Source of the DNA: Escherichia coli
GTDB taxonomy: Bacteria; Pseudomonadota; Gammaproteobacteria; Enterobacterales; Enterobacteriaceae
DNA length: 64,000 nucleotides
Direction: 5' to 3' (one strand)
Assembly: GCF_011045215.1 (NCBI RefSeq)
Contig: NZ_CP049202.1
Made by a program: the position numbers and the translations under genes. Each line of letters opens with the position of its first letter. Position 1 is the first letter of the stretch. The notes under the pieces were generated by a model that saw only the letters and a list, made by a program, of their open reading frames with translations, was not told the origin of the DNA and did not search any database. Shown piece by piece: positions 37,057 through 49,224 of this stretch.

Positions 37057-38160
37057 TCAGAAGGGCAGACAGCCCAGCGACAACAGCCTGTCAAGGGTTA
37101 CCTCCATACTGAAACGACTCATCACATCCCTGCGGGCCATGGCCGCCATTTCCGCGAACCCGGCCGGTGCGGACAGGTACGCACGCAGGGCTTCCAGCCA
37201 GGCCTGCCGGTTATCCGGCGGGAGCAGAATACCGGTCCGCTCATGATGAATGACGGAAGATAACCCTCCTGTATTACTGGCCATTACCGGCACACCACAT
37301 GCAGCAGCCTCCACTGCAGCCATACCAAATGATTCACAGGTGGAAGGCATCACCATCAGGGAAGCCACCCTGTAGAGCGGATATACCGGCGTAAGATAAC
37401 CGCATATCAGTACACCCCCTTCCATCCCCAGCGCATGAATTTTACGGCGTAACAGGCGCTCCTCTTCCGGACGCCCGCCACCGACTATCAGCCAGTGAAA
37501 CTGGCCTCCCTCACGTTTCAGATGAAAGAGTGTTTTCAGCATGAAATCCAGGCCTTTCTCCGGACGTAACATTCCGATCTGAACAATGACCGGATGAGGT
37601 GCTCTCGCTTCCAGCCATTCACGAACATGTTCCGGCAGGGGCATGCTCATGGCTTCCCGGATTGCATCAAAATCAAATCCCGGTGAAACCACCCGGATGG
37701 TGTTTGTACATCCCGCAGCCTGCAGCGCCTCCTTCATCGCCTGTCCGGGGACAGCAACGGCATCACAGAAGTGATTCAGCGAAAACACCTCCATCTTTCG
37801 GGTCAGATATGTCTTCTGACGGACAATACTGAACCTGCCCGCCCCTCCGGTAAGCGTGGCCCGGGTCAGAGCCACTGTGTTACTGTCATGTCCGCTGTGA
37901 CACACCACCATATCCGGCCGGAAAGTCAGAACAAGACGACGGAGTCGCCAGACTGATGAAAAATGCAGACTGTTCCTGAAAGGAATATATGTAACCGCAG
38001 TCTGCTGCCTGACCGCTTCCGCGGCTATCCGGCTGTTTTCGCGACATGCCAGCATGACACTGTGCCCGGCACGCTGCATTGCAGCCATCTGAGCCAGCGC
38101 CTGCAACTCCTGACCACCAATATTGGGAGAGGATTCGGTATAAAGAATTTTCATCACCAC
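37057..38160 (-). CDS. capU: Family-1 glycosyltransferase (CapU/RfbU/WabB-like hexosyltransferase)
   Basis: 367-aa ORF with GT-B features (N-terminal …NIGGQE…, C-terminal E-x7-E-like region). Confidence 0.7.
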   Translation of the reverse strand: MVMKILYTESSPNIGGQELQALAQMAAMQRAGHSVMLACRENSRIAAEAVRQQTAVTYIPFRNSLHFSSVWRLRRLVLTFRPDMVVCHSGHDSNTVALTRATLTGGAGRFSIVRQKTYLTRKMEVFSLNHFCDAVAVPGQAMKEALQAAGCTNTIRVVSPGFDFDAIREAMSMPLPEHVREWLEARAPHPVIVQIGMLRPEKGLDFMLKTLFHLKREGGQFHWLIVGGGRPEEERLLRRKIHALGMEGGVLICGYLTPVYPLYRVASLMVMPSTCESFGMAAVEAAACGVPVMASNTGGLSSVIHHERTGILLPPDNRQAWLEALRAYLSAPAGFAEMAAMARRDVMSRFSMEVTLDRLLSLGCLPF

Positions 38161-38163
38161 CTC

Positions 38164-38994
38164 TCAGTCATCATTCAGCCGGGGCCCCTTATGAAGGGCC
38201 AGAAGCGATGAAAAAAACGGAGTGGTGTAATAAAAGAGACGGCGCTTCAGCCAGCCGGAATGTTCACGCTCCTTTGTACTGATACGCCCGATACGCCGGG
38301 GACCCGCCACCGGTGAATTCATCCGCCGCTCAGTGGTGTAGAGGTGGGTGAATCCCAGTTTCTCCGCCACCCTGATATAGTCCGGATTGTAATACCCCTC
38401 CGGCCAGCATAAATGACGACTGCATGAACCGGTCATTTGCCTCATTCGCGCCTGTCCGAGAAGAATATCGGACTCAAGAAAGACGGACGGCTCACGGACG
38501 TTATCCAGCAGATCCCAGCGACGGTGGGTATGTGTGTGCAGATGAAACTCGACCAGCCCGCTCCGGCTCATTTCCCTGACCTCAGACCAGCGCAGCATGA
38601 CATCATCAGCCCGCCCCTGTGCAATCAGGGTCTCGCATTCCCGGTGAGAAAACATATGACGCCCCCCGCTTTCTTCATGTTGCCGGGCGGGACCATCACC
38701 GATAAGCCCCGTGACAAGAAAGATATGAGCCCGGAGACCAAATGCCTGTAACACCGGAAAGGCATAAAACCAGTTATCCAGGTAGCCGTCATCAAAGGTC
38801 AGCATGACGCTTTTGCGTGGCAGTTTCCCGCCACAATAAAAGAATTCCATTTCAGCTGCCGAAACAGTTTTCCAGCCATTTTCAGCCAGCCACTGCATCT
38901 GCTCACGGAAAGTCCGGAGTGAAAGCGTCACCAGCCCTGGATTATTACTGATATGGTGATACATTAATACAGGTAAGTAATGTGCATAAAGCAT
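38164..38994 (-). CDS. shf: Polysaccharide deacetylase-family protein (Shf/IcaB-like)
   Basis: 276-aa ORF with TFDDGY motif characteristic of NodB-type deacetylases; first gene of cluster. Confidence 0.7.
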   Translation of the reverse strand: MLYAHYLPVLMYHHISNNPGLVTLSLRTFREQMQWLAENGWKTVSAAEMEFFYCGGKLPRKSVMLTFDDGYLDNWFYAFPVLQAFGLRAHIFLVTGLIGDGPARQHEESGGRHMFSHRECETLIAQGRADDVMLRWSEVREMSRSGLVEFHLHTHTHRRWDLLDNVREPSVFLESDILLGQARMRQMTGSCSRHLCWPEGYYNPDYIRVAEKLGFTHLYTTERRMNSPVAGPRRIGRISTKEREHSGWLKRRLFYYTTPFFSSLLALHKGPRLNDD

Positions 38995-39179
38995 TTTATG
39001 ATATAACTTAATAAAATAAGTGATTTTTAACCATCTAAAACAAATATTTTATTTATTGAAATGATTTTGCTACACGCTGTCTTGTCTTTTTATGCAAACA
39101 CCCGGCATTAAAAGTTATTTTTTCGGGAATGCTGAATGCACCTCGCATATATAGCCTTCCTAAAATAGGAGTAAAAACT

Positions 39180-40085
39180 TCATTTTAAAAATGAAGAGAT
39201 TTTAACTATGTCTCCAAGAGAAGGTAGTTTATCTCTTGAAACAAGAAAGGAGTCACTCACCACTGGCATGTAATACTCAAAAAAATACTCCCCCTCTTTC
39301 TGATTGTGTTTCTCTATTATTTCAATATCACCCCCATTCAATCTGTTTAATCCATAAAAACCAAGTACATTCATATATATATGGTTTATAAAGTGTATAT
39401 ATTGCTGTTTTGTTCCTGTGAATTTAAAACCAGCATAAAGACCTTTTTTTAAAGTTAAAAATGAATTATTGTCTCGAGTCTTTTCCTTCCAAACCTTACT
39501 CTCTATAATGAAATCCTCACTTCGTTTTTGCCCTTGATAAACCTCATTTGAGATAATCAGAAAGGGGAGGGAATGGGAAAGTAACTTTTCAATTCTATCC
39601 CACCTTTTGGTGGCGCAATTAATAGTATAAGGTATCATTCCTTTATAAACATACAAATCTGCGAAAATCTTTTTCATTTCACAATCGAAGTAATAAAAAT
39701 CAGGACTCTCAAACTCAGGATTAACCGTCAGAGGACCACTGATGTTATGAAACACCCACACTTTATTTTCCCTGTACTGTTTTGGTGTATATCCTGTATG
39801 CTTCTTAAATTCTCTTGTAAAAGTTTGTTGTGAGTCATAACACAATGTTGTAGATATAACTGACAACGGCAGGTTGGTCAATCGTAGAAGAACAGCGCTA
39901 CGGCTAACTCTGCGTAGTCTGATGTATTTACCCACAGGCATACCAACAAATCGTTTAAATAATAATTGTAAATTACGTCTACTATACCCAGAACGGGTAA
40001 CAAGGCTATCTATATCTATATTATAGATATCTAAATTATCTTCAATATATTGAAGAATCTCTTTTATTGTAAGAAGTCTTATCAT
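39180..40085 (-). CDS. AraC-family transcriptional regulator with C-terminal GyrI-like domain (paralogue of 31615..32454)
   Basis: 301-aa ORF; N-terminal AraC HTH (…DSQQTFTREFKK…TPKQYR); AT-rich; between TAA gene and shf. Confidence 0.7.
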   Translation of the reverse strand: MIRLLTIKEILQYIEDNLDIYNIDIDSLVTRSGYSRRNLQLLFKRFVGMPVGKYIRLRRVSRSAVLLRLTNLPLSVISTTLCYDSQQTFTREFKKHTGYTPKQYRENKVWVFHNISGPLTVNPEFESPDFYYFDCEMKKIFADLYVYKGMIPYTINCATKRWDRIEKLLSHSLPFLIISNEVYQGQKRSEDFIIESKVWKEKTRDNNSFLTLKKGLYAGFKFTGTKQQYIHFINHIYMNVLGFYGLNRLNGGDIEIIEKHNQKEGEYFFEYYMPVVSDSFLVSRDKLPSLGDIVKISSFLK

Positions 40086-40384
40086 ATCTTGACCTTATAC
40101 ATCACCGGGAAGCATACGCCAGAAAGCAATTAAGCATGTTTGTGCTTTTTATTTATTGTTTTTTTGTGCACTCAACACTTTATTCTCTATATAAACCCAT
40201 GTTAAAAATGTTAAATTATATTTTGCCATAAACAATGAAGTATTTAACCCCAATAAACAAACCACTATTTACACATGATTAATCATGCAAATGGATACCA
40301 ATTTATTGAGGCTGTTACCGTGGTTAATTAACGTAATATTATTCGGTTAATTATTATTAACAGTAATGTCATATAAATATAAAA

Positions 40385-43300
40385 TTACCATTGATAACCA
40401 ACCCCCACAGAAGCACCAAAGTCATTCTGGGTATTCCCGCCAGCATGTAATTTCGTTATCCAGTGTCCATTTTGTGATATATGAGAAACACCTACAGCAA
40501 TTGCCGATTCGCCACCATAGGTACCTGCAGATACTCCGACCAGACTTGAATCGGGCTGATAGGCCTGTGGAATTCCTGATAAAGCCATCGATGTTGCGAT
40601 ACCTGCAGTCAGTTTTGTTTTCATATCCCCCATCTTTTTATCAAGAGAATCCACCTTTCTGTCGGTATACTGTTTTAAACTGGAGAAACTTTCATTAAGC
40701 TGTCCTACAGTTACAGCATCAGATCGGTTAACTCCCGGAGCAACATTGGTTATTCTTCGCTGATTCAGTGAAGAGCCAACTGACACTGTGTTATCCTCAC
40801 TTGCTACAGAATTACTCCCGAGGGCCACGCTATTTTTTGATGAAACAGTACTTTTGTTCCCAATACCAATGCTGTTTTCTCCGGTTACATTCACATCAGC
40901 ACCAACTGCAATGGCATTATCTTTTTCTGCTCTGGCGTTACCTCCTAAAGCGATTGCATTTTTACCGGTGGCTTTAGGTTTCATTGTTTTTTCTGAGTTT
41001 ACTGCCAACATTGATGCATCTCCTATACTGCCTGAAACCTCTTTTAACTGGCTGACAGTCACTACATCATTATCATTGACCCCTTCTTTCACCCCTGTTA
41101 TTTGTCGATTACCATCAGTACCACTGACGGTTATTTTCTCGCCGCCACTATTTTTTGCTATTGTCACCTCAGAAAGATTTGAGGATTGCTGAACCAGACC
41201 GACTTTTCCGTCTTCAATGTCTTTTATTCCTGAACTTAACTTATTTATTTCAGTTGTATTCTGGGCAACTTTTTGATTCGTTTCATATAACTGTTTACCA
41301 TTTACAGCATCAGTACTGGTTGCACTGACTGCTCCATCGGCAATCCCTGTTAGAACCCTTTCACCATCCGTCCCGCGAAAATCGACCAGTGCTCCTCCAC
41401 TTCCGGAACCAACAGATATTACTTTGTTGTTTGCATTCTGTTGTACCAAACCACTTTGTCCAGCCTGAAGAGAGTTAATCTTTGATATATTTTCAGTTAA
41501 CGTATTGTCAACAGCAATAAACGCATCCCCCACGTTATATTTACTCTGTCCCTGAATGATATAAACAGGATTTCTGAACTGACTAATATTATCGAATGAA
41601 GCCCCACCACCAAGAGCTGTAGCCACTGAACTCAGGACGGTATTTGTCTGATAAAGCTGACTGCCGGTCACGGCTTCGCTGCTGTCCGCTGCTAGAGTAC
41701 CATCCCGAACGCCGGTCAGGGTACGGACACCGTCCGTACCGGTCAGATCCACTGATGTTCCCCCACTGGCTGCTGCAACGCTGACCACCCGGGATGTCGG
41801 ATCCTGACGTACCAGCCCCACGGAGCCACTGCTGATATTATTCACGTCATTCTGCAGTGTGGTTATATTGCCGGTGTTCGCGGTGACCGAGGTATCCAGT
41901 GCCGTCAGGGCATCCCCCACAGTTGAGCGGCCACTGCCCTGAATCTGATAAGTTGGTGCAGTGAAGGAGCCATCCGTTGCGATGGCGGCCCCGCCACCAA
42001 GACTCTGTGTCAGGCCGGACAGCTGTCCCGTATGCTGTGTCAGTGTCTGCCCCTGGGTTGTGAGGGTTCCGGTGTTGGTGGCGATCGCTGCAGTGTTGGT
42101 GGTCACATTCTGGTTGGTGGTAAAAAGCTGACTGCCGGTCACGGCTTCGCTGCTGTCCGCTGCTAGAGTACCATCCCGGACGCCGGTCAGGGTACGGACA
42201 CCGTCCGTACCGGTCAGATCCACTGATGTTCCCCCACTGGCTGCTGCAACGCTGACCACCCGGGATGTCGGATCCTGACGTACCAGCCCCACGGAGCCAC
42301 TGCTGATATTATTCACGTCATTCTGCAGTGTGGTTATATTGCCGGTGTTCGCGGTGACCGAGGTATCCAGTGCCGTCAGGGCATCCCCCACAGTTGAGCG
42401 GCCACTGCCCTGAATCTGATAAGTTGGTGCAGTGAAGGAGCCATCCGTTGCGATGGCGGCCCCGCCACCAAGACTCTGTGTCAGGCCGGACAGCTGTCCC
42501 GTATGCTGTGTCAGTGTCTGCCCCTGGGTTGTGAGGGTTCCGGTGTTGGTGGCGATCGCTGCAGTGTTGGTGGTCACATTCTGGTTGGTGGTAAAAAGCT
42601 GACTGCCGGTCACGGCTTCGCTGCTGTCCGCTGCTAGAGTACCATCCCGGACGCCGGTCAGGGTACGGACACCGTCCGTACCGGTCAGATCCACTGATGT
42701 TCCCCCACTGGCTGCTGCAACGCTGACCACCCGGGATGTCGGATCCTGACGTACCAGCCCCACGGAGCCACTGCTGATATTATTCACGTCATTCTGCAGT
42801 GTGGTTATATTGCCGGTGTTCGCGGTGACCGAGGTATCCAGTGCCGTCAGGGCATCCCCCACAGTTGAGCGGTCACTGCCCTGAATCTGATAAGTTGGTG
42901 CAGTGAAGGAGCCATCCGTTGCGATGGCGGCCCCGCCCCCCAAAGAGTCGGCAATATTATTAATGTTATTACCGGATTGTGTTAGTGCACTGTTCGTTGC
43001 AAAAAGCTGGCTGCCGTTAACAGCGTCAGTACTGATTCCGGATATTCGTCCGGCTGCAACATTTTGCAGCTGACGTTCTTTCCCTGTATCACCAATACTC
43101 AGGGCTGCTACCGGACTGGTACCTGCGTAGGTATATTCCTTATTATTTATGATACCGGATGTTGTTGCAGTCACAGCGGCTGTTTTTGCCTCACTCCCTA
43201 AAGCCACATCGCCATCATTTGATGAAGATGCTCCCATTCCAATGGCCACACTATTATCGCCCCCGGCATTTGAAACAGACCCCAGAGAAATACTGGAATC

Positions 43301-43912
43301 ACCCGCAGCTTCAGCACCGACCCCAATGGCCAGACTGGTCGTCCCGGATGCCAGAGCTGAAACACCAAAAGCCTGAGCTGCAGCACCTGTTGCAGTGGCG
43401 TTACTGCCGAATGCAGTGGAATAGTTTCCTGTGGTATATGCGCCACAACCCGACGCCCATGAATACACACCAAACGCCTCGGGCACAGCATTTGTCACCC
43501 CACCCGTTAACGGCCCTTGATAACCGATGTTATTGGTTGTTGTACCATTACCACTCCAGTTAACTACCGTGGATGAAGTTCCATATGGGTGCATGCCACT
43601 GAATTCAGTATCATTAATAAAACGCTGGTACTGTTCAAATGCCGTTATGGCTCCTGTTGTCACATCAGTTACAGTTCTGCGTCCAATGACATTGTCTGCC
43701 CCACAATAGTCATCATCACCTGCTAAAGTAATCGCCCCATGACTAACATTGGGGTATCCCTGACTGGCAGCAGTAGATGAATAATTTGAAGAACTGAGTA
43801 AGGTTAAGTTAGATGCAGAAACGGAGTATATATATACATATGAAATTAAAAGAACAATAAATTGTACTATAGTTCTACTTTTCATAAGAATTCCTACTAA
43901 AGGTAAAATCAT
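40385..43912 (-). CDS. Trimeric autotransporter adhesin (YadA/Hia-type) with repetitive stalk
   Basis: 1175-aa ORF: signal peptide, head repeats (SVAIG/NSVALG-type), three tandem ~157-aa stalk repeats, C-terminal YadA-like anchor ending …GVGYQW. Confidence 0.9.
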   Translation of the reverse strand: MILPLVGILMKSRTIVQFIVLLISYVYIYSVSASNLTLLSSSNYSSTAASQGYPNVSHGAITLAGDDDYCGADNVIGRRTVTDVTTGAITAFEQYQRFINDTEFSGMHPYGTSSTVVNWSGNGTTTNNIGYQGPLTGGVTNAVPEAFGVYSWASGCGAYTTGNYSTAFGSNATATGAAAQAFGVSALASGTTSLAIGVGAEAAGDSSISLGSVSNAGGDNSVAIGMGASSSNDGDVALGSEAKTAAVTATTSGIINNKEYTYAGTSPVAALSIGDTGKERQLQNVAAGRISGISTDAVNGSQLFATNSALTQSGNNINNIADSLGGGAAIATDGSFTAPTYQIQGSDRSTVGDALTALDTSVTANTGNITTLQNDVNNISSGSVGLVRQDPTSRVVSVAAASGGTSVDLTGTDGVRTLTGVRDGTLAADSSEAVTGSQLFTTNQNVTTNTAAIATNTGTLTTQGQTLTQHTGQLSGLTQSLGGGAAIATDGSFTAPTYQIQGSGRSTVGDALTALDTSVTANTGNITTLQNDVNNISSGSVGLVRQDPTSRVVSVAAASGGTSVDLTGTDGVRTLTGVRDGTLAADSSEAVTGSQLFTTNQNVTTNTAAIATNTGTLTTQGQTLTQHTGQLSGLTQSLGGGAAIATDGSFTAPTYQIQGSGRSTVGDALTALDTSVTANTGNITTLQNDVNNISSGSVGLVRQDPTSRVVSVAAASGGTSVDLTGTDGVRTLTGVRDGTLAADSSEAVTGSQLYQTNTVLSSVATALGGGASFDNISQFRNPVYIIQGQSKYNVGDAFIAVDNTLTENISKINSLQAGQSGLVQQNANNKVISVGSGSGGALVDFRGTDGERVLTGIADGAVSATSTDAVNGKQLYETNQKVAQNTTEINKLSSGIKDIEDGKVGLVQQSSNLSEVTIAKNSGGEKITVSGTDGNRQITGVKEGVNDNDVVTVSQLKEVSGSIGDASMLAVNSEKTMKPKATGKNAIALGGNARAEKDNAIAVGADVNVTGENSIGIGNKSTVSSKNSVALGSNSVASEDNTVSVGSSLNQRRITNVAPGVNRSDAVTVGQLNESFSSLKQYTDRKVDSLDKKMGDMKTKLTAGIATSMALSGIPQAYQPDSSLVGVSAGTYGGESAIAVGVSHISQNGHWITKLHAGGNTQNDFGASVGVGYQW
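41657..43070. repeat. Three near-identical tandem repeats of ~471 bp inside the TAA gene
   Basis: Same sequence (…CTGACTGCCGGTCACGGCTTCGCTGCTGTCCGCTGCTAGAGTACCATCCCG…) restarts at ~41657, ~42128 and ~42600. Confidence 0.85.
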
Positions 43913-44639
43913 ATATAATTAAGTAAATTTAACACAGTATACTAAGTGTAGTGAAAATAATTTGCCTTTTAAGATAAAGTTATATTCCAATGAAGATTAG
44001 TTCTTTATTAAATACTATGAGAAGCATAAAAAATATACTAGTTACAAATAAATGTATCAATAATGTGTAGAATGTTGTATCATATCGAATACTCTACAAC
44101 TTCATGACGTGGATAATACCCATTATTCAGAATAAACGGTAATACCAACTCTAAATTTACATTATCCACTCCCTGTATATTCAGCAGTTCCAAATAAAGG
44201 TAATATTACGATTCCTTTACTCAACTTAGCATGTTTTTTTGACATCTTACCTATCTTTATACTTGAGAACTGAAGAAATTTTGTAATAAACATCGTTCAA
44301 ACTGCTTCCATAGGTATTCAAACTTTTTAAGGATCGCCATAAGTGACATTTTCCCAAATTATAATTTTCTTTACGATAAACTGTATGCGAACTTAAAGCT
44401 TATTTCCAACGGGATTTTTATGAGTATATTTTTCCTTTAGTACAGTACACTATGAAAAGGCGTACTTATTTTGCAGATGAAAATCCTGGTCCGGAAAGTA
44501 CAGCTAACGTCACCAAATAGCAAATTTTTCGCCTTCTCAGGTAACCTCGAATGTAAAACGTAGACAGCGAAGTAGCCAAACCAAAGCCAAATGATGAACA
44601 TGCTCCCCACGAAATAGAAGTATTTGTGAGGACCGATAG

Positions 44640-45223
44640 CCGGTTGGATTTGTTCTTATATTTCCAGACACCTGTTATCACTTACCCCATGACTGGTCCG
44701 CTGCTGCAGATATTCCCGTAGCAAGCGATAACTCAGCGCATCGTTATAGTGCTCGAACGCCTCCGTAAGGTTCTTTACTATCGTTAACCCATCAGTTTGG
44801 GCATGATATATAGTCACGTTTTATCGTTTTCACGAAGCTCTCTGCTATTCCGTTACTCTCTGAACTCCGCACCGCCGTGTTCTTCGATTCAAACCACAAT
44901 ATTCGGACGAACTGGCATGTTTCATTAGCTCGGTAGTATGACCCATTATCTGTCAGCCACTCTACTAGCGATGTCGGAAGACCTTTGCCGAAGCGGTGTT
45001 CCGCCGCACCCAGCATATCCATTACTTCCCCCGTATACTCATTGATGAAGTGAATCTGAATAAGATGCTTTGCGATATCAACGCCAACCGGTGTATATTT
45101 CATTTTGTGGAGTCTCCAGTCTGAGGGAACTTTATGTATCCCGTATTGGGCACTATGCTGCCGGAAATCTGCGAGGCTCCACACCTTCCTGTTTTTTCCT
45201 TCATCCATCACAGTGCACCTCAC
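44640..45223 (-). mobile_element. IS2-like (IS3-family) fragment: orfB 3' portion plus degenerate terminal repeat
   Basis: ORF 44792..45223 contains …[14 protein letters not shown]…[18 protein letters not shown], recognised as IS2 OrfB-like; truncated. Confidence 0.55.
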
Positions 45224-45592
45224 TTAATAGGGTGGGATGTGTTCATTACATTTTTTGAACGCAGCAGCTATCACACGGGTGGTCATCCCTTTGGCATACA
45301 ACGAGAGGATCTGGTTATCTATCCCAGTAATACGGGGCTGATTTTTCTTTACCAGTTGTGGTTCGAAGGTACCGTAACGATCGCGCGGAGTACGCACCTC
45401 CAGTGGACCGTCGCCTGTGATAACAGTCTTTGTGGAATAACCGTTGCGGGAGTTAGCTCCCGGTCTGGACTGATTTTTCTCATATCCAGGGGTTCTGCGC
45501 CCATTTCCTCCAAAAGTCTCACTCTTAGCATAAAAACCATTATTTATCATGTTGTTAACCGTCATATTCGGACTCAATATCTCCGATATCAC
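45224..45592 (-). mobile_element. IS256-family transposase N-terminal fragment
   Basis: 122-aa ORF resembles the N-terminal region of IS256-family transposases. Confidence 0.5.
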
Positions 45593-45661
45593 TTAGTGGG
45601 TCTACTCCCTCCAAAAGACTGAACCGCCCCGGGTTTCCTGGAGAGTGTTTTATCTGTGAAC

Positions 45662-46552
45662 TCAGGCTGCCAGATCATCGTTTCCGATGGAAGCATAATA
45701 AGCTTTTTCTGCTTCTGCCGGTGGGATATGGCCCAGCCTTTCCAGCAATCGTCGATTGTTATACCAGTCCACCCACGTGAGTGTGGACAGCTCCACTTCT
45801 GTCCGGTTTTTCCAGCGCTTACGGTGTATTACCTCCGCTTTGTAAAGGCCATTGATGCTCTCCGCCATCGCGTTGTCATACGAGTCACCAGTACTCCCTG
45901 TTGATGCCAGTAAGCCGGCTTCCTTAAGCCGCTGCGTGTAGGCCAGCGATACATACTGAGAACCTTTATCACTGTGGTGGATTGTGCCGGACGGCCGACG
46001 GGCCCACAACGCCTGCTCCAGTGCATCCGGCACGAATGCCGTTTCCATGGATGATGAGACCCGCCATCCCACGATGTATCCGGCGAACACATCAATGATG
46101 AACGCCACATAAACGAAGCCCTGCCATGTGCTTACCCAGGTAAAATCAGCCACCCACAACTGGTCAGGACGTTCTGCCACGAACTGACGGTTTACGCGGT
46201 CGCATGCGGCAACGGCTTTCCGGCTGACGGTAGTGCGGACCTTTTTACCCCGGAGAACACCGGCAAGTCCCATAACCGCCATGAGACGTGCCACAGTGCA
46301 TCTGGCCACTCTGATACCTTCCCGTAACAACTGACGCCAGACTTTACGCACACCGTATACCTGGTGATTTTCATCGTATACGCGCTGTATCTCTTTCTTC
46401 AGCCAGTCATCGCGCTGCGCACGGGCACTGCGTTTATCAGGATGATGTCGCTGTTGCTGACAGTGGTAATACGTTGACGGGGCAATATGCAGTTCGCTGC
46501 ATACCGGTCCGACCCCGTACTGCTCACGCAGCTTATCCAGCAGTGGCATCAT
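45662..46552 (-). CDS. IS629 OrfB (transposase catalytic subunit)
   Basis: 296-aa ORF with rve-type DDE region. Confidence 0.85.
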
Positions 46553-46875
46553 TTTTTCCAGAGGCGGTCGAACTCCGCCTTCGCAAAATAAGCGGAAGCC
46601 TGGCGAAGGATATCGTTACTGCGGCGCAGTTCACGATTTTCACGTTCCAGCTCTTTCAGACGCTGACGTTCAGCGGTGGTGAGCCCACCATCACCGCCCC
46701 CGGTATCCCGCTCATGCTGGCGTACCCAGACACGCAGAGTCTCCGGCGTACAGCCAATTTTTGGAGCAATGGAACAAATTGCCGCCCACTGTGAATCATA
46801 CTCATCCTGACTTTCCAGAACCATACGAATCGCTCGCTGACGGACTTCGGGGGAAAAACGAGTATTTTTAGTCAT
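46549..46875 (-). CDS. IS629 OrfA
   Basis: 108-aa [22 protein letters not shown]…, HTH plus leucine zipper. Confidence 0.85.
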
Positions 46876-46926
46876 CCTGTTTACCTCTTTCTCAGGGAGT
46901 TTAGTCTCCAGGATTCCCGGGACGGT

Positions 46927-49224
46927 TCAATGATTGTCAGTCGCTAATGACTTTGGTTGTATTTCACTGGTATTGTTATATAACAAGTCAAATGCAAAAT
47001 GACCTTCATATTCATTTGGAGAAATTACCACAGTTGATAATGGCACATGATTAGATACCAGTGTCATCGCAGAACCCCCTTTCCCCTTTCTGAAATACTT
47101 GGCAGAATAACGGGCTTTAAATGTATTTATTCTGCAAGTGTGCTTCTGCCCATCAACACTTCCAAATGGAGAATTTTCATTTATCGTCCAGTATTTATAT
47201 ACAGAAAGATTTGCAATTACATCAGATATTACTGTGTTGGCCATTCCTGTTGTTTCTGGACGAATGAATTTGTCATTCACATCACGTAGTATTCCAATAC
47301 TACGGTCTGATGCAGATGCCATTCTGTGAACACCATAATTTGCGCCATTACCAAATATACAAGCAAGAAGGTCATTATAGTTAGCTTCAAGATTATTTTT
47401 CCTAGATGATATGGCATTAAACACAGACAAAAAATTCGTCTCATTGTTTACATACTTCATTACGTCAACTATCCCGATATTTTTATCTGATTGTAAATCG
47501 GATTATCGATGCTGGTCTTCTATTTTTTACTGGCCAGACTCCACTGTAATCTGTTGGAGTGTGGTTGTTTTTTCACAAACTCATTAACATCTGAGTTTAT
47601 TCCAATGGTTATACGAGCCAGTTTATCGCTAAAGGTATTCTCCAGGTCATTAAGAGTCTGCGTTATTGGTGTGATAAGTCGTTCAAGGCCTGTTTTCTCT
47701 ATCAAAATCGATTTATTCTTATCCCAGTAACTTCGTTCTATGAGATCATCTTCCAGTCTCTTGTTTTGTTCACTCTCCGCAGCATAAAAGACACCGTTTT
47801 CCAGATGGTTAGATACCCTGCTGTACATATGAAATTCGAATCGTTGAGTGTTAATTTCTCCTTTTTTTACAATGTAATTTTTCTCGGATGGATGAATTAC
47901 CCTCAGATCCTTAGCATCCAGCTTTCCTTTTCCTCTGAGATCATCCTTGGCAGCAGTAATTTGCTGGCCAATAACAGACTTCTCGTTGTCATATACTATT
48001 ATCTATAGTCAGAAAAAGCTTTCGGATTGAATTGGCGATCTTAAGGTGATGGCTGTCAATATACTACCATTGATATTCAATTACATCGATTTTATTTTTG
48101 TCAAAAAATTCACTCACAAGATGCATATCATCTTTCGATATAAGTGAAAAAACCTTTTCACGAACATATCCAAACGGGATGCTGTCTTCAATGTTACTAT
48201 CAACGAAGAAGTTAAATATTTTACTCGCAAACTTAAGCTTTTTATTTATTAGATCTATTTCCTCTGTTGCCCGAGCTTTTGCAAACAAAACTGAAGCGTC
48301 TTTATGTTTTTTTACTAAATATCTGAAGGCCGTGATTATTTTATCATTTATCTCTCTGTATCTGAAGTACAAGTAGCAGCACAAATAAAGTATTCCTTGC
48401 CATTTAGGGTGTCGCTTAAGTCTGAATGTTGTACTGTGTTTTACGATAGTTGCATAGTACTCCATGTTTCCCTGGGATATACCTAATGAATTAATTATAT
48501 CTTTTATTTCATAGTAAATACTACTTATCACATTGTGTGTTCTTAATTCATTTTCTATTTCTGATGCTGAGAAGTCCCTCGTGCTATAATTACATCCATC
48601 ATCATGGATGATGGATGTAATCTTTTGTGCAGTGGCAGGATAAATTCTCTTTGACAAAATATTAATTGTCCTTTTCCTTTCAAAGTTTAAAGCATCTGAA
48701 ACGAGGTTCTGGACAGTACTGTATCCAGGAAGAGCTATACGCCGCTGTCCTAAAAAAGCAAGTAATTCATCAAAAATATATTTGGGTTCCATACATATAG
48801 TAGCAACATCATTCAGACGTTCACTTAACTCATTTTTTATAGATGGGGTGAGTTGTTCAAATCCTAGAGTAGAAAGCATTCGTTTAACAAGGCGGTGCTT
48901 TGTACTTTTAGGTATGTTTAAATTGAGATTAGTACTTTCGTTTTTATAATATGTCTGGATAATATATTTCACATCCCTTTTTACGTCTTTTAATGTAAAT
49001 TCAGGAATCACAGGTTTATATCTGAAATACCCTGTTATTAATATCAGATACACCCTGCTTTCTATATTTATTATTTTATCAATTTCTCTTTTAAGGCTGA
49101 TATCCAGCGAAAAAAACTCATCCCTTTCAACAGGATTAAAAGAGGGGACTTGATATAATTCATTTATTTCACTTTTTGTTAATATACTAATTCTTTTCTT
49201 GTACTTCTGCATACATTTACCCAA
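46927..49224 (-). pseudogene. tnpA: Tn3-family transposase (tnpA) remnant, fragmented into three ORFs and 3'-truncated by IS629
   Basis: ORFs 48064..49224, 47520..47828, 46927..47460 resemble N-terminal, middle and DDE regions of Tn3-family TnpA; AT-rich. Confidence 0.55.

What the first reader, a model, noticed from the sequence alone, without database searches (positions are those of the whole stretch)
41657..43070. Three near-identical 471-bp tandem repeats in the TAA stalk
The repeat unit (157 aa) is almost perfectly conserved at nucleotide level across three copies, implying recent expansion or ongoing homogenisation. Repeat-number change by recombination would alter stalk length and surface projection, and the repeats are an assembly hazard: short-read assemblies can collapse them. 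The paralogue at 13859..16043 has only one unit.
Basis: seen in the sequence. Interest (0 to 1): 0.55.

Follow-up and report, generated by a model that had tools for sequence, protein, structure and literature searches.

The report
Tandem stalk modules in plasmid adhesin
A plasmid gene for a trimeric surface adhesin of E. coli carries 2.7 almost identical 471-bp copies of a standard stalk building block; this is real, breaks short-read assemblies, and is an ordinary feature of this adhesin family.

Summary
The repeat is real, but smaller than described. The near-perfect period-471 array spans 41653-42937 (1285 bp, 2.73 copies, two internal substitutions). The stretch 42938-43070 is not repeat.

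It lies in an intact minus-strand gene, 40385-43885, which encodes a 1166-aa trimeric autotransporter adhesin (TAA) identical to WP_164476282.1. Each 157-aa unit is a canonical TAA stalk module: FGG, coiled coil, DALL1, neck, coiled coil. This is the architecture repeated in Bartonella BadA and solved in AtaA and SadA. A fourth, diverged module follows the array.

Public draft assemblies bear out the assembly hazard:
- One isolate has a 598-bp contig (471 + 127, with prefix equal to suffix).
- Of 14 listed partial proteins, ten end just inside the repeat and four begin within the last copy or at its end.

Two alleles on uninterrupted contigs hold only 0.73 unit. The population therefore appears polymorphic, but no complete genome available here could confirm this.

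Homologues in other Enterobacterales hold 6-8 units. Units are 92-95% alike within a protein and 59-75% alike between proteins, which indicates concerted evolution.

One unexpected result: the array is a compositional island (GC3 0.6 against 0.3 for the rest of the gene), probably imported from a GC-richer TAA.

The paralogue is a truncated, frameshifted pseudogene. Overall this is a new member of a known kind, of low interest.

The parts
40385..43885 (-). Intact TAA gene (1166 aa from the ATG at 43885; the first in-frame ATG at 43912 would give 1175 aa). Identical to QIF16406.1 / WP_164476282.1, 'YadA-like family protein [Escherichia coli]'.
   Evidence: ORF list; translation; Pfam YadA_anchor 1.2e-16, YadA_stalk and YadA_head; exact-sequence look-up; GGA 7 nt upstream of the 43885 ATG.
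43814..43885 (-). Predicted Sec signal peptide, MKSRTIVQFIVLLISYVYIYSVSA.
   Evidence: Read from the translation: basic N-terminus, hydrophobic core, SVSA cleavage-type motif. No predictor was run.
42944..43462 (-). N-terminal YadA-like head repeats and the first neck (aa 151-323 of the 1175-codon ORF).
   Evidence: Pfam YadA_head hits at aa 151-242 and YadA_stalk at aa 281-323.
41653..42937 (-). Near-perfect tandem array: period 471 bp, 2.73 copies, 99.8% self-identity, in frame (157 codons per unit). It is a compositional island (GC 0.60, GC3 0.59-0.64).
42467..42937 (-). Unit 1 in gene orientation. Carries the private non-synonymous site 42873 (D347).
41996..42466 (-). Unit 2.
41653..41995 (-). 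Unit 3, partial (343 bp, 0.73 unit). It covers FGG, coiled coil, DALL1 and neck, and ends at the neck motif TGSQL. Carries the private synonymous site 41708.
41225..41614 (-). Fourth, diverged stalk module (ALGGGASFDN... to ...AVNGKQLYETNQ). It is 44% identical to unit 1, has low GC3 (0.29), and is conserved in all relatives.
40772..40972 (-). Membrane-proximal YadA-like head repeats (aa 981-1047).
   Evidence: Pfam.
40388..40570 (-). YadA-like beta-barrel membrane anchor (aa 1115-1175).
   Evidence: Pfam PF03895, E 1.2e-16, full-length match.
14053..16043 (+). Paralogue, a pseudogene. It is the ortholog (99.1%) of the 767-aa TAA of E. coli C5 plasmid A. It lacks the first 314 nt (and so the signal peptide) and has a 1-nt insertion at 15435. 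It holds one degenerate, low-GC unit.
9172..9572 (+). Third TAA remnant: a copy of nt 62-464 of the main-type gene (N-terminal region only).

Best explanation
The window carries an intact, plasmid-borne gene for a trimeric autotransporter adhesin (type Vc secretion). Its stalk contains a young tandem array of a 157-aa module. The module consists of an FGG beta-meander, a coiled coil, a DALL1 connector, a neck, and a polar (N/T-rich) coiled coil.

Shown here:
- The array is 2.73 copies with two substitutions.
- The unit is homologous to solved AtaA and SadA stalk segments.
- The same module is arrayed 6-8 times in related enterobacterial TAAs.
- Units within one protein are much more alike than units between proteins.
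- The array has twice the GC3 of the rest of the gene.
- Short-read assemblies of other E. coli isolates break or collapse at this array.

Inferred history: a segment with more than one unit was brought in by recombination from a GC-richer TAA gene. Since then it has been kept homogeneous, and changed in number, by unequal homologous recombination or slippage between the 471-bp direct repeats. Every such event stays in frame.

Inferred function: each unit adds roughly 10 nm of rigid trimeric fibre. This figure is scaled from AtaA and BadA at about 0.06-0.07 nm per residue. Gain or loss of units would therefore move the N-terminal head nearer to or further from the cell surface. It would also change the number of exposed FGG and DALL-neck loops.
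For: - Repeat anatomy.
- TAA identity: Pfam anchor, stalk and head. NCBIfam gives partial hits to Ata, EmaA, Vomp and YadA models, all below their cut-offs, so the protein is an unnamed family member.
- Module identity: phmmer finds AtaA 3WPA (E 2e-27; FGG at query 37-103, DALL1-neck at 82-166), AtaA 3WPO, and SadA 2YO2 (FGG, DALL, neck). PMC4786415 Table 2 assigns 3WPA/3WPO to DALL1 and the long neck. PMC4910087 describes the L-GGG tri-glycine loop of the FGG motif in 3WPA.
- Family pattern: unit counts are 1, 3, 6 and 8. Unit lengths differ by multiples of 7 aa. Identity is 92-95% within a protein against 59-75% between proteins. At nucleotide level it is 89-99.6% between adjacent units against 69-75% between proteins.
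- Foreign composition: GC3 is 0.59-0.64 in the units and 0.29-0.37 elsewhere in the gene.
- Independent isolates: contig L005 is 598 bp with a 127-nt prefix equal to its suffix, giving period 471, and differs from the window at 1 base. Junction-bearing partial proteins P0136-P0138 stand for 32 member sequences. Of 14 listed fragments, ten end at aa 325-346 and four start at aa 654-755.
- A 0.73-unit allele lies on an uninterrupted 10.5-kb contig.
Against: - No reads are available, so the count in this record (2.73) is unverified.
- No complete genome or plasmid in PLSDB or in RefSeq complete E. coli carries this allele, so copy-number variation could not be measured on closed assemblies.
- The 0.73-unit contigs have exactly the sequence that graph collapse would also produce.
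- No donor closer than about 74% nucleotide identity was found for the GC-rich cassette.
- Expression, trimerisation and any adhesion phenotype are untested.
- The DALL1 label rests on sequence homology to solved structures, not on a daTAA run or a model.
Confidence: 0.85

Rival explanations
1. The copy number in this record is an assembly artefact. The real gene would have fewer or more units, and the array as written was produced by a long-read or hybrid assembler.
For: Repeats of this kind are demonstrably mis-assembled in public data. The only full-length record of this allele is the one the window comes from. A 0.73-unit version exists.
Against: Units 1 and 3 each carry a private substitution (42873 and 41708), which a purely artefactual duplication would not create. 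At least one other isolate independently shows the unit-to-unit junction and a 471-bp loop. At least 1.27 copies are therefore real in the population.
Confidence: 0.12
2. The units are kept mainly as repeated ligand-binding sites, giving avidity, rather than as a length spacer. In Bartonella BadA, DALL-neck hairpins and FGG loops in repeated stalk domains bind fibronectin.
For: The module architecture is the same as the BadA neck/stalk domains (FGG, coiled coil, DALL, neck). In BadA, antibodies to a DALL motif block fibronectin binding (PMC9602544). Unit sequence is strongly conserved within arrays.
Against: High within-array identity is explained equally well by recombination alone. The BadA study itself found quick saturation and proposed that the stalk acts mainly as a spacer and an evolutionary toolbox. 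There is no ligand data for this protein. This rival does not exclude the spacer role.
Confidence: 0.25
3. The gene is an unexpressed or decaying remnant in an IS-rich plasmid region, and the repeat is selectively neutral debris from recombination among TAA paralogues.
For: Two other TAA copies in the window are pseudogenes or fragments. IS3, IS256 and Tn3 fragments lie immediately upstream. The flanks are about 30% GC and the promoter is only a consensus match.
Against: The 3.5-kb ORF is uninterrupted, with a signal peptide, a head, a full-length anchor match and a plausible ribosome-binding site. All unit changes preserve the reading frame. The exact allele or its fragments occur in at least 71 clustered sequences from many isolates.
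Confidence: 0.1

Closest known systems
Bartonella henselae BadA neck/stalk domains
   Same: A TAA whose stalk is built from repeated FGG, coiled coil, DALL, neck modules. Domain duplication, acquisition and deletion by recombination give different lengths among isolates. Short reads could not assemble the gene, and long reads were needed (PMC9602544; PMC8859334).
   Different: BadA has 30 domains of several subtypes on the chromosome of an alphaproteobacterium. Here there are only 2.73 nearly identical units plus one diverged module, on an E. coli F-type-like plasmid, and the units are compositionally foreign to the rest of the gene. No direct sequence match to BadA was sought beyond the shared motifs.
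Acinetobacter sp. [quoted passage not shown]
   Same: These are the best solved-structure matches to the unit: FGG with the L-GGG tri-glycine loop, then DALL1 and the long neck.
   Different: Identity is only about 40-50% over parts of the unit. AtaA and SadA are chromosomal, much longer and mosaic rather than near-perfect tandem arrays.
Multi-unit enterobacterial homologues P0001 (record labelled Salmonella Choleraesuis, AP025685.1, 1997 aa) and P0002 (JGI 3300066021, 1782 aa)
   Same: They share the overall architecture and the same module, arrayed 8 and 6 times and followed by the same diverged last module, C-terminal head and anchor. They are 56-61% identical overall.
   Different: They are chromosomal and GC-rich throughout (GC3 about 0.7). 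Their units are 168-196 aa long, with extra heptads. Units are 68-75% identical to those of the window.
Periscope Proteins (variable-length surface proteins with repeats of high DNA identity)
   Same: Near-identical in-frame DNA repeats sit in the stalk of a surface adhesin. Repeat-number change is expected to alter the projection of a distal functional domain. Short reads cannot resolve the repeats (PMC9704523).
   Different: The class is defined for monomeric single-chain proteins whose repeat domains fold on their own. The review explicitly excludes TAAs, while noting that they may serve a similar function.
Haemophilus cryptic genospecies Cha and STEC Saa (TAAs with variable tandem peptide repeats)
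   Same: These are TAAs in which the number of tandem peptide repeats differs between strains. In Cha this modulates adhesive activity (Sheets and St Geme 2011, as cited in PMC9704523). Saa is plasmid-encoded on pO113 (PMC2681110). That Saa varies in repeat number is recalled from my own knowledge (Paton 2001) and was not checked here.
   Different: Those repeats are short peptides of about 28-37 aa, a figure also from my own knowledge, not whole FGG-DALL-neck modules. No nucleotide-level match to pO113 was found in the plasmid search.

Membership tests
Trimeric autotransporter adhesins (type Vc secretion) | C-terminal YadA-like beta-barrel anchor domain | tested here: met
   PF03895 at aa 1115-1175, model positions 1-60 of 60, E 1.2e-16.
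Trimeric autotransporter adhesins (type Vc secretion) | Passenger built from head repeats, necks and coiled-coil stalk segments | tested here: met
   YadA_head and YadA_stalk hits along the passenger. Homology to the AtaA and SadA stalk structures.
Trimeric autotransporter adhesins (type Vc secretion) | N-terminal signal peptide for Sec export | tested here: inconclusive
   MKSRTIVQFIVLLISYVYIYSVSA looks like a Sec signal on inspection. No signal-peptide predictor is available here.
Trimeric autotransporter adhesins (type Vc secretion) | Obligate homotrimer displayed on the outer membrane, with adhesive function | not testable with these tools
   Needs biochemistry or microscopy.
FGG, coiled coil, DALL, neck stalk module (BadA/SadA/AtaA type) | [quoted passage not shown] | tested here: met
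   SLGGGAAIATDGSFTAPTYQIQG aligns to the FGG segments of 3WPA (residues 41-108 and 344-401) and 2YO2. The tri-glycine loop is described.
FGG, coiled coil, DALL, neck stalk module (BadA/SadA/AtaA type) | DALL-type alpha-to-beta connector directly followed by a neck | tested here: met
   Query residues 82-166 align to 3WPA 262-343 (i-E 1e-13) and to 3WPO. These structures are listed as DALL1 and long neck in PMC4786415 Table 2. Pfam YadA_stalk matches the three necks only weakly (E 0.005-0.009).
Periscope Proteins | Tandem repeats with very high DNA identity in the stalk | tested here: met
   99.8% identity over 1285 bp.
Periscope Proteins | Repeat number varies among closely related strains | tested here: inconclusive
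   There are 0.73-unit contigs, at least 1.27 units in isolates with junction contigs, and 2.73 here. All but the window come from draft assemblies, and no closed genome with this allele was found.
Periscope Proteins | Monomeric single chain whose repeat domains fold individually | tested here: not met
   The protein is a TAA, and the unit's elements (coiled coils, DALL, neck) are trimeric by nature. The review excludes TAAs by definition.
Simple-sequence contingency loci (phase variation by slipped-strand mispairing) | Short unit (1-9 nt) whose number changes shift the frame or the promoter spacing | tested here: not met
   The unit is 471 nt, or 157 codons, so every change stays in frame.

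The most novel reading that the evidence does not exclude
A plasmid-borne E. coli TAA behaves as a trimeric counterpart of a Periscope Protein. A compositionally foreign 157-aa FGG-DALL1-neck cassette, captured from a GC-richer TAA, would be gained and lost at appreciable frequency by RecA-dependent unequal recombination. Ruminant-associated E. coli populations would then hold a standing mixture of stalk lengths (0.73, 1.73, 2.73 ... units, in steps of about 10 nm). This mixture would tune head exposure relative to O-antigen, capsule or the co-resident fimbriae.
Probability: 0.3. Interest if true: 0.35.

Novelty: new member of a known kind. Interest (0 to 1): 0.2.

Why it matters
The main value is practical. 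This adhesin gene is fragmented or collapsed in most public draft E. coli assemblies, where it shows up as many 'partial' proteins and 400-600-bp orphan contigs. Presence/absence and length calls for it in short-read adhesiome or virulome surveys are therefore unreliable.

Biologically, it is one more clean example of how TAA stalks evolve: a module is imported, amplified and homogenised. Here the foreign origin of the cassette is unusually easy to see, because its GC3 is twice that of the host gene. It does not open a new question, because the same behaviour is documented for BadA and other TAAs.

Tried and rejected
- Counting units in closed genomes failed. Megablast of the gene against PLSDB found 7 records, none covering 80% of the query or more. 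Against 5,426 complete RefSeq E. coli genomes it found 2 genomes, both carrying only the short paralogue type.
- The look-up of encoding contigs for the exact 1166-aa protein found nothing on record, so the source contig could not be re-read.
- Tandem Repeats Finder found nothing in the Salmonella-labelled and JGI homologues because their periods (504-588 bp) exceed the tool's 500-bp limit. I replaced it with a script.
- A literature search for the protein accessions gave no paper. pO113's putative TAA LH0147 was considered as a relative, but pO113 did not appear among the nucleotide matches.
- I rejected a simple-sequence phase-variation switch, because the unit is 157 codons.
- I rejected the idea that the 0.73-unit allele is the ancestor of the array by simple duplication. 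The 128-bp remainder of the unit is absent from that allele, so it must derive from a multi-unit form, by deletion or by assembly collapse.
- Structure prediction was not run. A monomer model of an obligate trimeric coiled-coil fibre would not be informative.
- The capped metagenome and genome scans were not used. Short-read contigs there would be collapsed in the same way.
Full report
**Observation.** Tandem Repeats Finder reports one array in 38000-47000: 41653-42937, period 471, 2.7 copies, 99% matches and no indels. The repeat finder places three copies in register at 41653, 42124 and 42595. A base-by-base comparison at a shift of 471 shows identity from 41653 to 42466, except at 41708 and 42402/42873. 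Outside that span identity falls to about 28-29%, which is chance level. The array is therefore 1285 bp, or 2.73 units. Of the two substitutions, 41708 is synonymous (V735) and private to the last unit. The other, 42873, changes G to D at residue 347 and is private to the first unit.

**What it lies in.** The array is on the minus strand, inside ORF 40385-43912. From the ATG at 43885, which has GGA 7 nt upstream, the product is 1166 aa. It is identical to QIF16406.1 / WP_164476282.1, 'YadA-like family protein [Escherichia coli]', recorded on a 167,766-bp contig. Pfam finds a full-length YadA anchor at the C-terminus, YadA head repeats near both ends, and YadA_stalk (neck) matches, including three weak ones inside the units. 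NCBIfam gives only sub-threshold partial matches to the Ata, EmaA, Vomp, BimA and YadA models, so this is an unnamed TAA. The gene is intact and has a Sec-type signal sequence on inspection.

**What the unit is.** Searched against all PDB sequences, the unit matches four structures:
- The AtaA C-terminal stalk, 3WPA (E 2e-27).
- AtaA 3WPO.
- SadA 2YO2.
- SadA 2YNY.

'SLGGGAAIATDGSFTAPTYQIQG...VGDALTALD' aligns with the FGG segments of these structures. The leucine followed by a tri-glycine loop is the feature described for FGG in 3WPA (PMC4910087). 'GSVGLVRQD...VSVAAASGGTSVDLTGTDGVRTLTGVRDGTLAADSSEAVTGSQL' aligns with 3WPA residues 262-343 and with 3WPO. PMC4786415 Table 2 lists these under DALL1 and the long neck. 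The rest of the unit is an N/T-rich coiled coil.

The module is therefore FGG, coiled coil, DALL1, neck, coiled coil. This is the same 'typical domain architecture' described for the repeated neck/stalk domains of Bartonella BadA (PMC9602544). After the partial third unit comes a fourth module that is 44% identical to unit 1. It is followed by another DALL/neck, a second head and the anchor.

**Relatives.** The closest complete plasmids are E. coli C5 plasmid A, pCeylon31IncF, and the E. fergusonii and E. coli RHB plasmids. They carry 767-784-aa versions with one degenerate unit and no array. That type is the ortholog of the window's paralogue, not of the main gene.

The protein database holds the following:
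- P0003 (852 aa) is the same allele minus exactly 314 aa, or two units.
- P0005 is a hybrid with one unit.
- P0001 (1997 aa) and P0002 (1782 aa) have 8 and 6 units, followed by the same diverged last module.

Unit lengths across these proteins are 157, 168, 175, 182, 189 and 196 aa, which differ by whole heptads. One E. coli variant (P0137, 12 member sequences) lacks the single heptad AAIATNT. Units are 92-95% identical within a protein and 59-75% between proteins. At nucleotide level, adjacent units are 89-99.6% identical and units of different proteins 69-75%. This is the signature of concerted evolution or repeated lineage-specific expansion.

**Assembly hazard, shown on public data.** The 90% cluster of the window protein has 71 members, and almost all those listed are 'partial' proteins on contigs of 0.8-3 kb. 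Of the 14 listed fragments, ten are N-terminal pieces that end at aa 325-346, which is 0-21 residues into the repeat. The other four are C-terminal pieces that start at aa 654-755, within or just after the last unit.

A search with the unit found three further clusters of orphan fragments (32 member sequences) that contain the unit-to-unit junction GLTQ|SLGGG. One of these contigs, L005 from GCA_002326765.1, is 598 bp long with its first 127 nt identical to its last 127 nt. That gives 471 + 127, the form a tandem repeat takes when a k=127 graph assembler collapses it into a loop. It differs from the window at one base. The tandem arrangement is therefore real in at least one other isolate (L005), and junction-bearing fragments suggest it in more. 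Short reads do not resolve it.

**Is the number polymorphic?** L004 (10.5 kb) runs without a break through flank, 0.73 unit, flank, and it differs from the window by 0.6% upstream and 1.8% downstream. P0005 does the same on a 33-kb contig. A graph assembler normally breaks where a loop joins, as it did in the other isolates, so these probably are genuine short alleles. However, X + 0.73 unit + Y is also exactly what collapse would give, and I cannot tell the two apart without reads.

The 0.73-unit form cannot be the ancestor of the array by simple duplication, because the remaining 128 bp of the unit is absent from it. It must derive from a multi-unit form.

**Unexpected: the array is compositionally foreign.** GC is 0.60 across the array, against about 0.42 in the 3' half of the gene and about 0.30 in the flanks. 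GC3 values are as follows:
- Units: 0.59-0.64.
- N-terminal region: 0.29-0.37.
- Fourth module: 0.29.
- C-terminal part: 0.32.

The edges of the island coincide with the edges of the array. P0001 and P0002 have GC3 of about 0.7 throughout. The most economical reading is that a segment of more than one unit was imported by recombination from a GC-richer homologous TAA and has since been amplified or homogenised. The donor was not found; the nearest units are about 74% identical.

**Mechanism.** The following is shown: 471-bp direct repeats in frame, near-identity between copies, and different counts in relatives. The rest is inferred. Unequal homologous recombination or slippage would add or remove whole modules. 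Each module would lengthen the trimeric fibre by roughly 10 nm. This figure is scaled from AtaA, whose passenger of about 3,400 aa forms a fibre longer than 200 nm (PMC4910087), and it is only a rough estimate. Changing the unit number would also change the number of exposed FGG and DALL-neck loops, which bind fibronectin in BadA.

**Comparison with known systems.** The closest analogue in behaviour is BadA. Its stalk uses the same module type, its lengths differ among isolates through domain duplication and deletion, and long reads were needed to assemble it (PMC8859334). The Periscope Protein concept matches in logic. However, it excludes TAAs by definition, while conceding that they may play a similar role (PMC9704523).

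**Surroundings.**
- Downstream on the same strand lie a Rob-like AraC/GyrI regulator, a PgaB-N-like polysaccharide deacetylase and a GT4 glycosyltransferase.
- Upstream are IS3, IS256 and Tn3 fragments.
- The 'paralogue' at 14053-16043 lacks its first 314 nt and has a 1-nt insertion at 15435 relative to its intact 99%-identical ortholog.
- A third remnant lies at 9172-9572.

**Verdict.** The phenomenon is a textbook property of TAA stalks, so this is a new member of a known kind. Interest is low. The GC3 island adds a neat, modest piece of evolutionary detail.

Noticed in passing
window 41653-42937, against the rest of 40385-43885: The repeat array is a sharp compositional island: GC3 0.59-0.64 against 0.29-0.37 in the rest of the same gene, with flanks at about 30% GC. 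This suggests the module cassette was imported from a GC-richer TAA gene. No donor closer than about 74% nucleotide identity was found.
   Followed up: partly
window 14053-16043 (+): The second TAA copy is a pseudogene. It is 99% identical to the intact 767-aa gene of E. coli C5 plasmid A, but it lacks the first 314 nt and has a 1-nt insertion at 15435. In pRHB33-C07_2 and pCeylon31IncF, about 2.2-2.6 kb lies between the gene and the fimbrial-chaperone region. That segment is deleted here.
   Followed up: yes
window 9172-9572 (+): A third TAA remnant: a 400-bp copy of nt 62-464 of the main-type gene (96.5% to L004), carrying ORF 9205-9564 and lacking both a start context and an anchor.
   Followed up: partly
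window 37057-40085 (-): Directly downstream of the TAA on the same strand lie a Rob-like AraC/GyrI-domain regulator (39180-40085), a PgaB-N-terminal-like polysaccharide deacetylase (38164-38994) and a GT4 glycosyltransferase (37057-38160). The regulator also follows the TAA in L004. This could be a regulatory or glycan-modification partnership with the adhesin; it was not examined.
   Followed up: no
P0137 (12 member sequences, 442-bp contig) compared with window units: A unit variant in other E. coli isolates lacks exactly one heptad (AAIATNT) of the coiled coil, giving a 450-bp unit. In the homologues P0001, P0002 and P0012, unit lengths also differ by multiples of 7 aa (157 to 196).
   Followed up: partly
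window 44691-47460: The region upstream of the TAA promoter is a pile of IS3, IS2-like, IS256 and Tn3 transposase fragments. In L004 an intact IS3-family element sits at the equivalent position, interrupting the homology (window 44691-45245 and 42595-44699 are split there).
   Followed up: no
window 41841-41869, 42312-42340, 42783-42811 (+): Each unit carries the same antisense sigma-70-like consensus match (TTCACG, 17 nt, TATATT; 9 of 12). It is most likely a chance match copied along with the repeat.
   Followed up: no
L007 (AP025685.1, labelled Salmonella enterica serovar Choleraesuis): The record that carries the 8-unit homologue is a 4.26-Mb contig whose flanks at this locus have 47% GC. 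That seems small and AT-rich for Salmonella, so the organism label may deserve a check.
   Followed up: no
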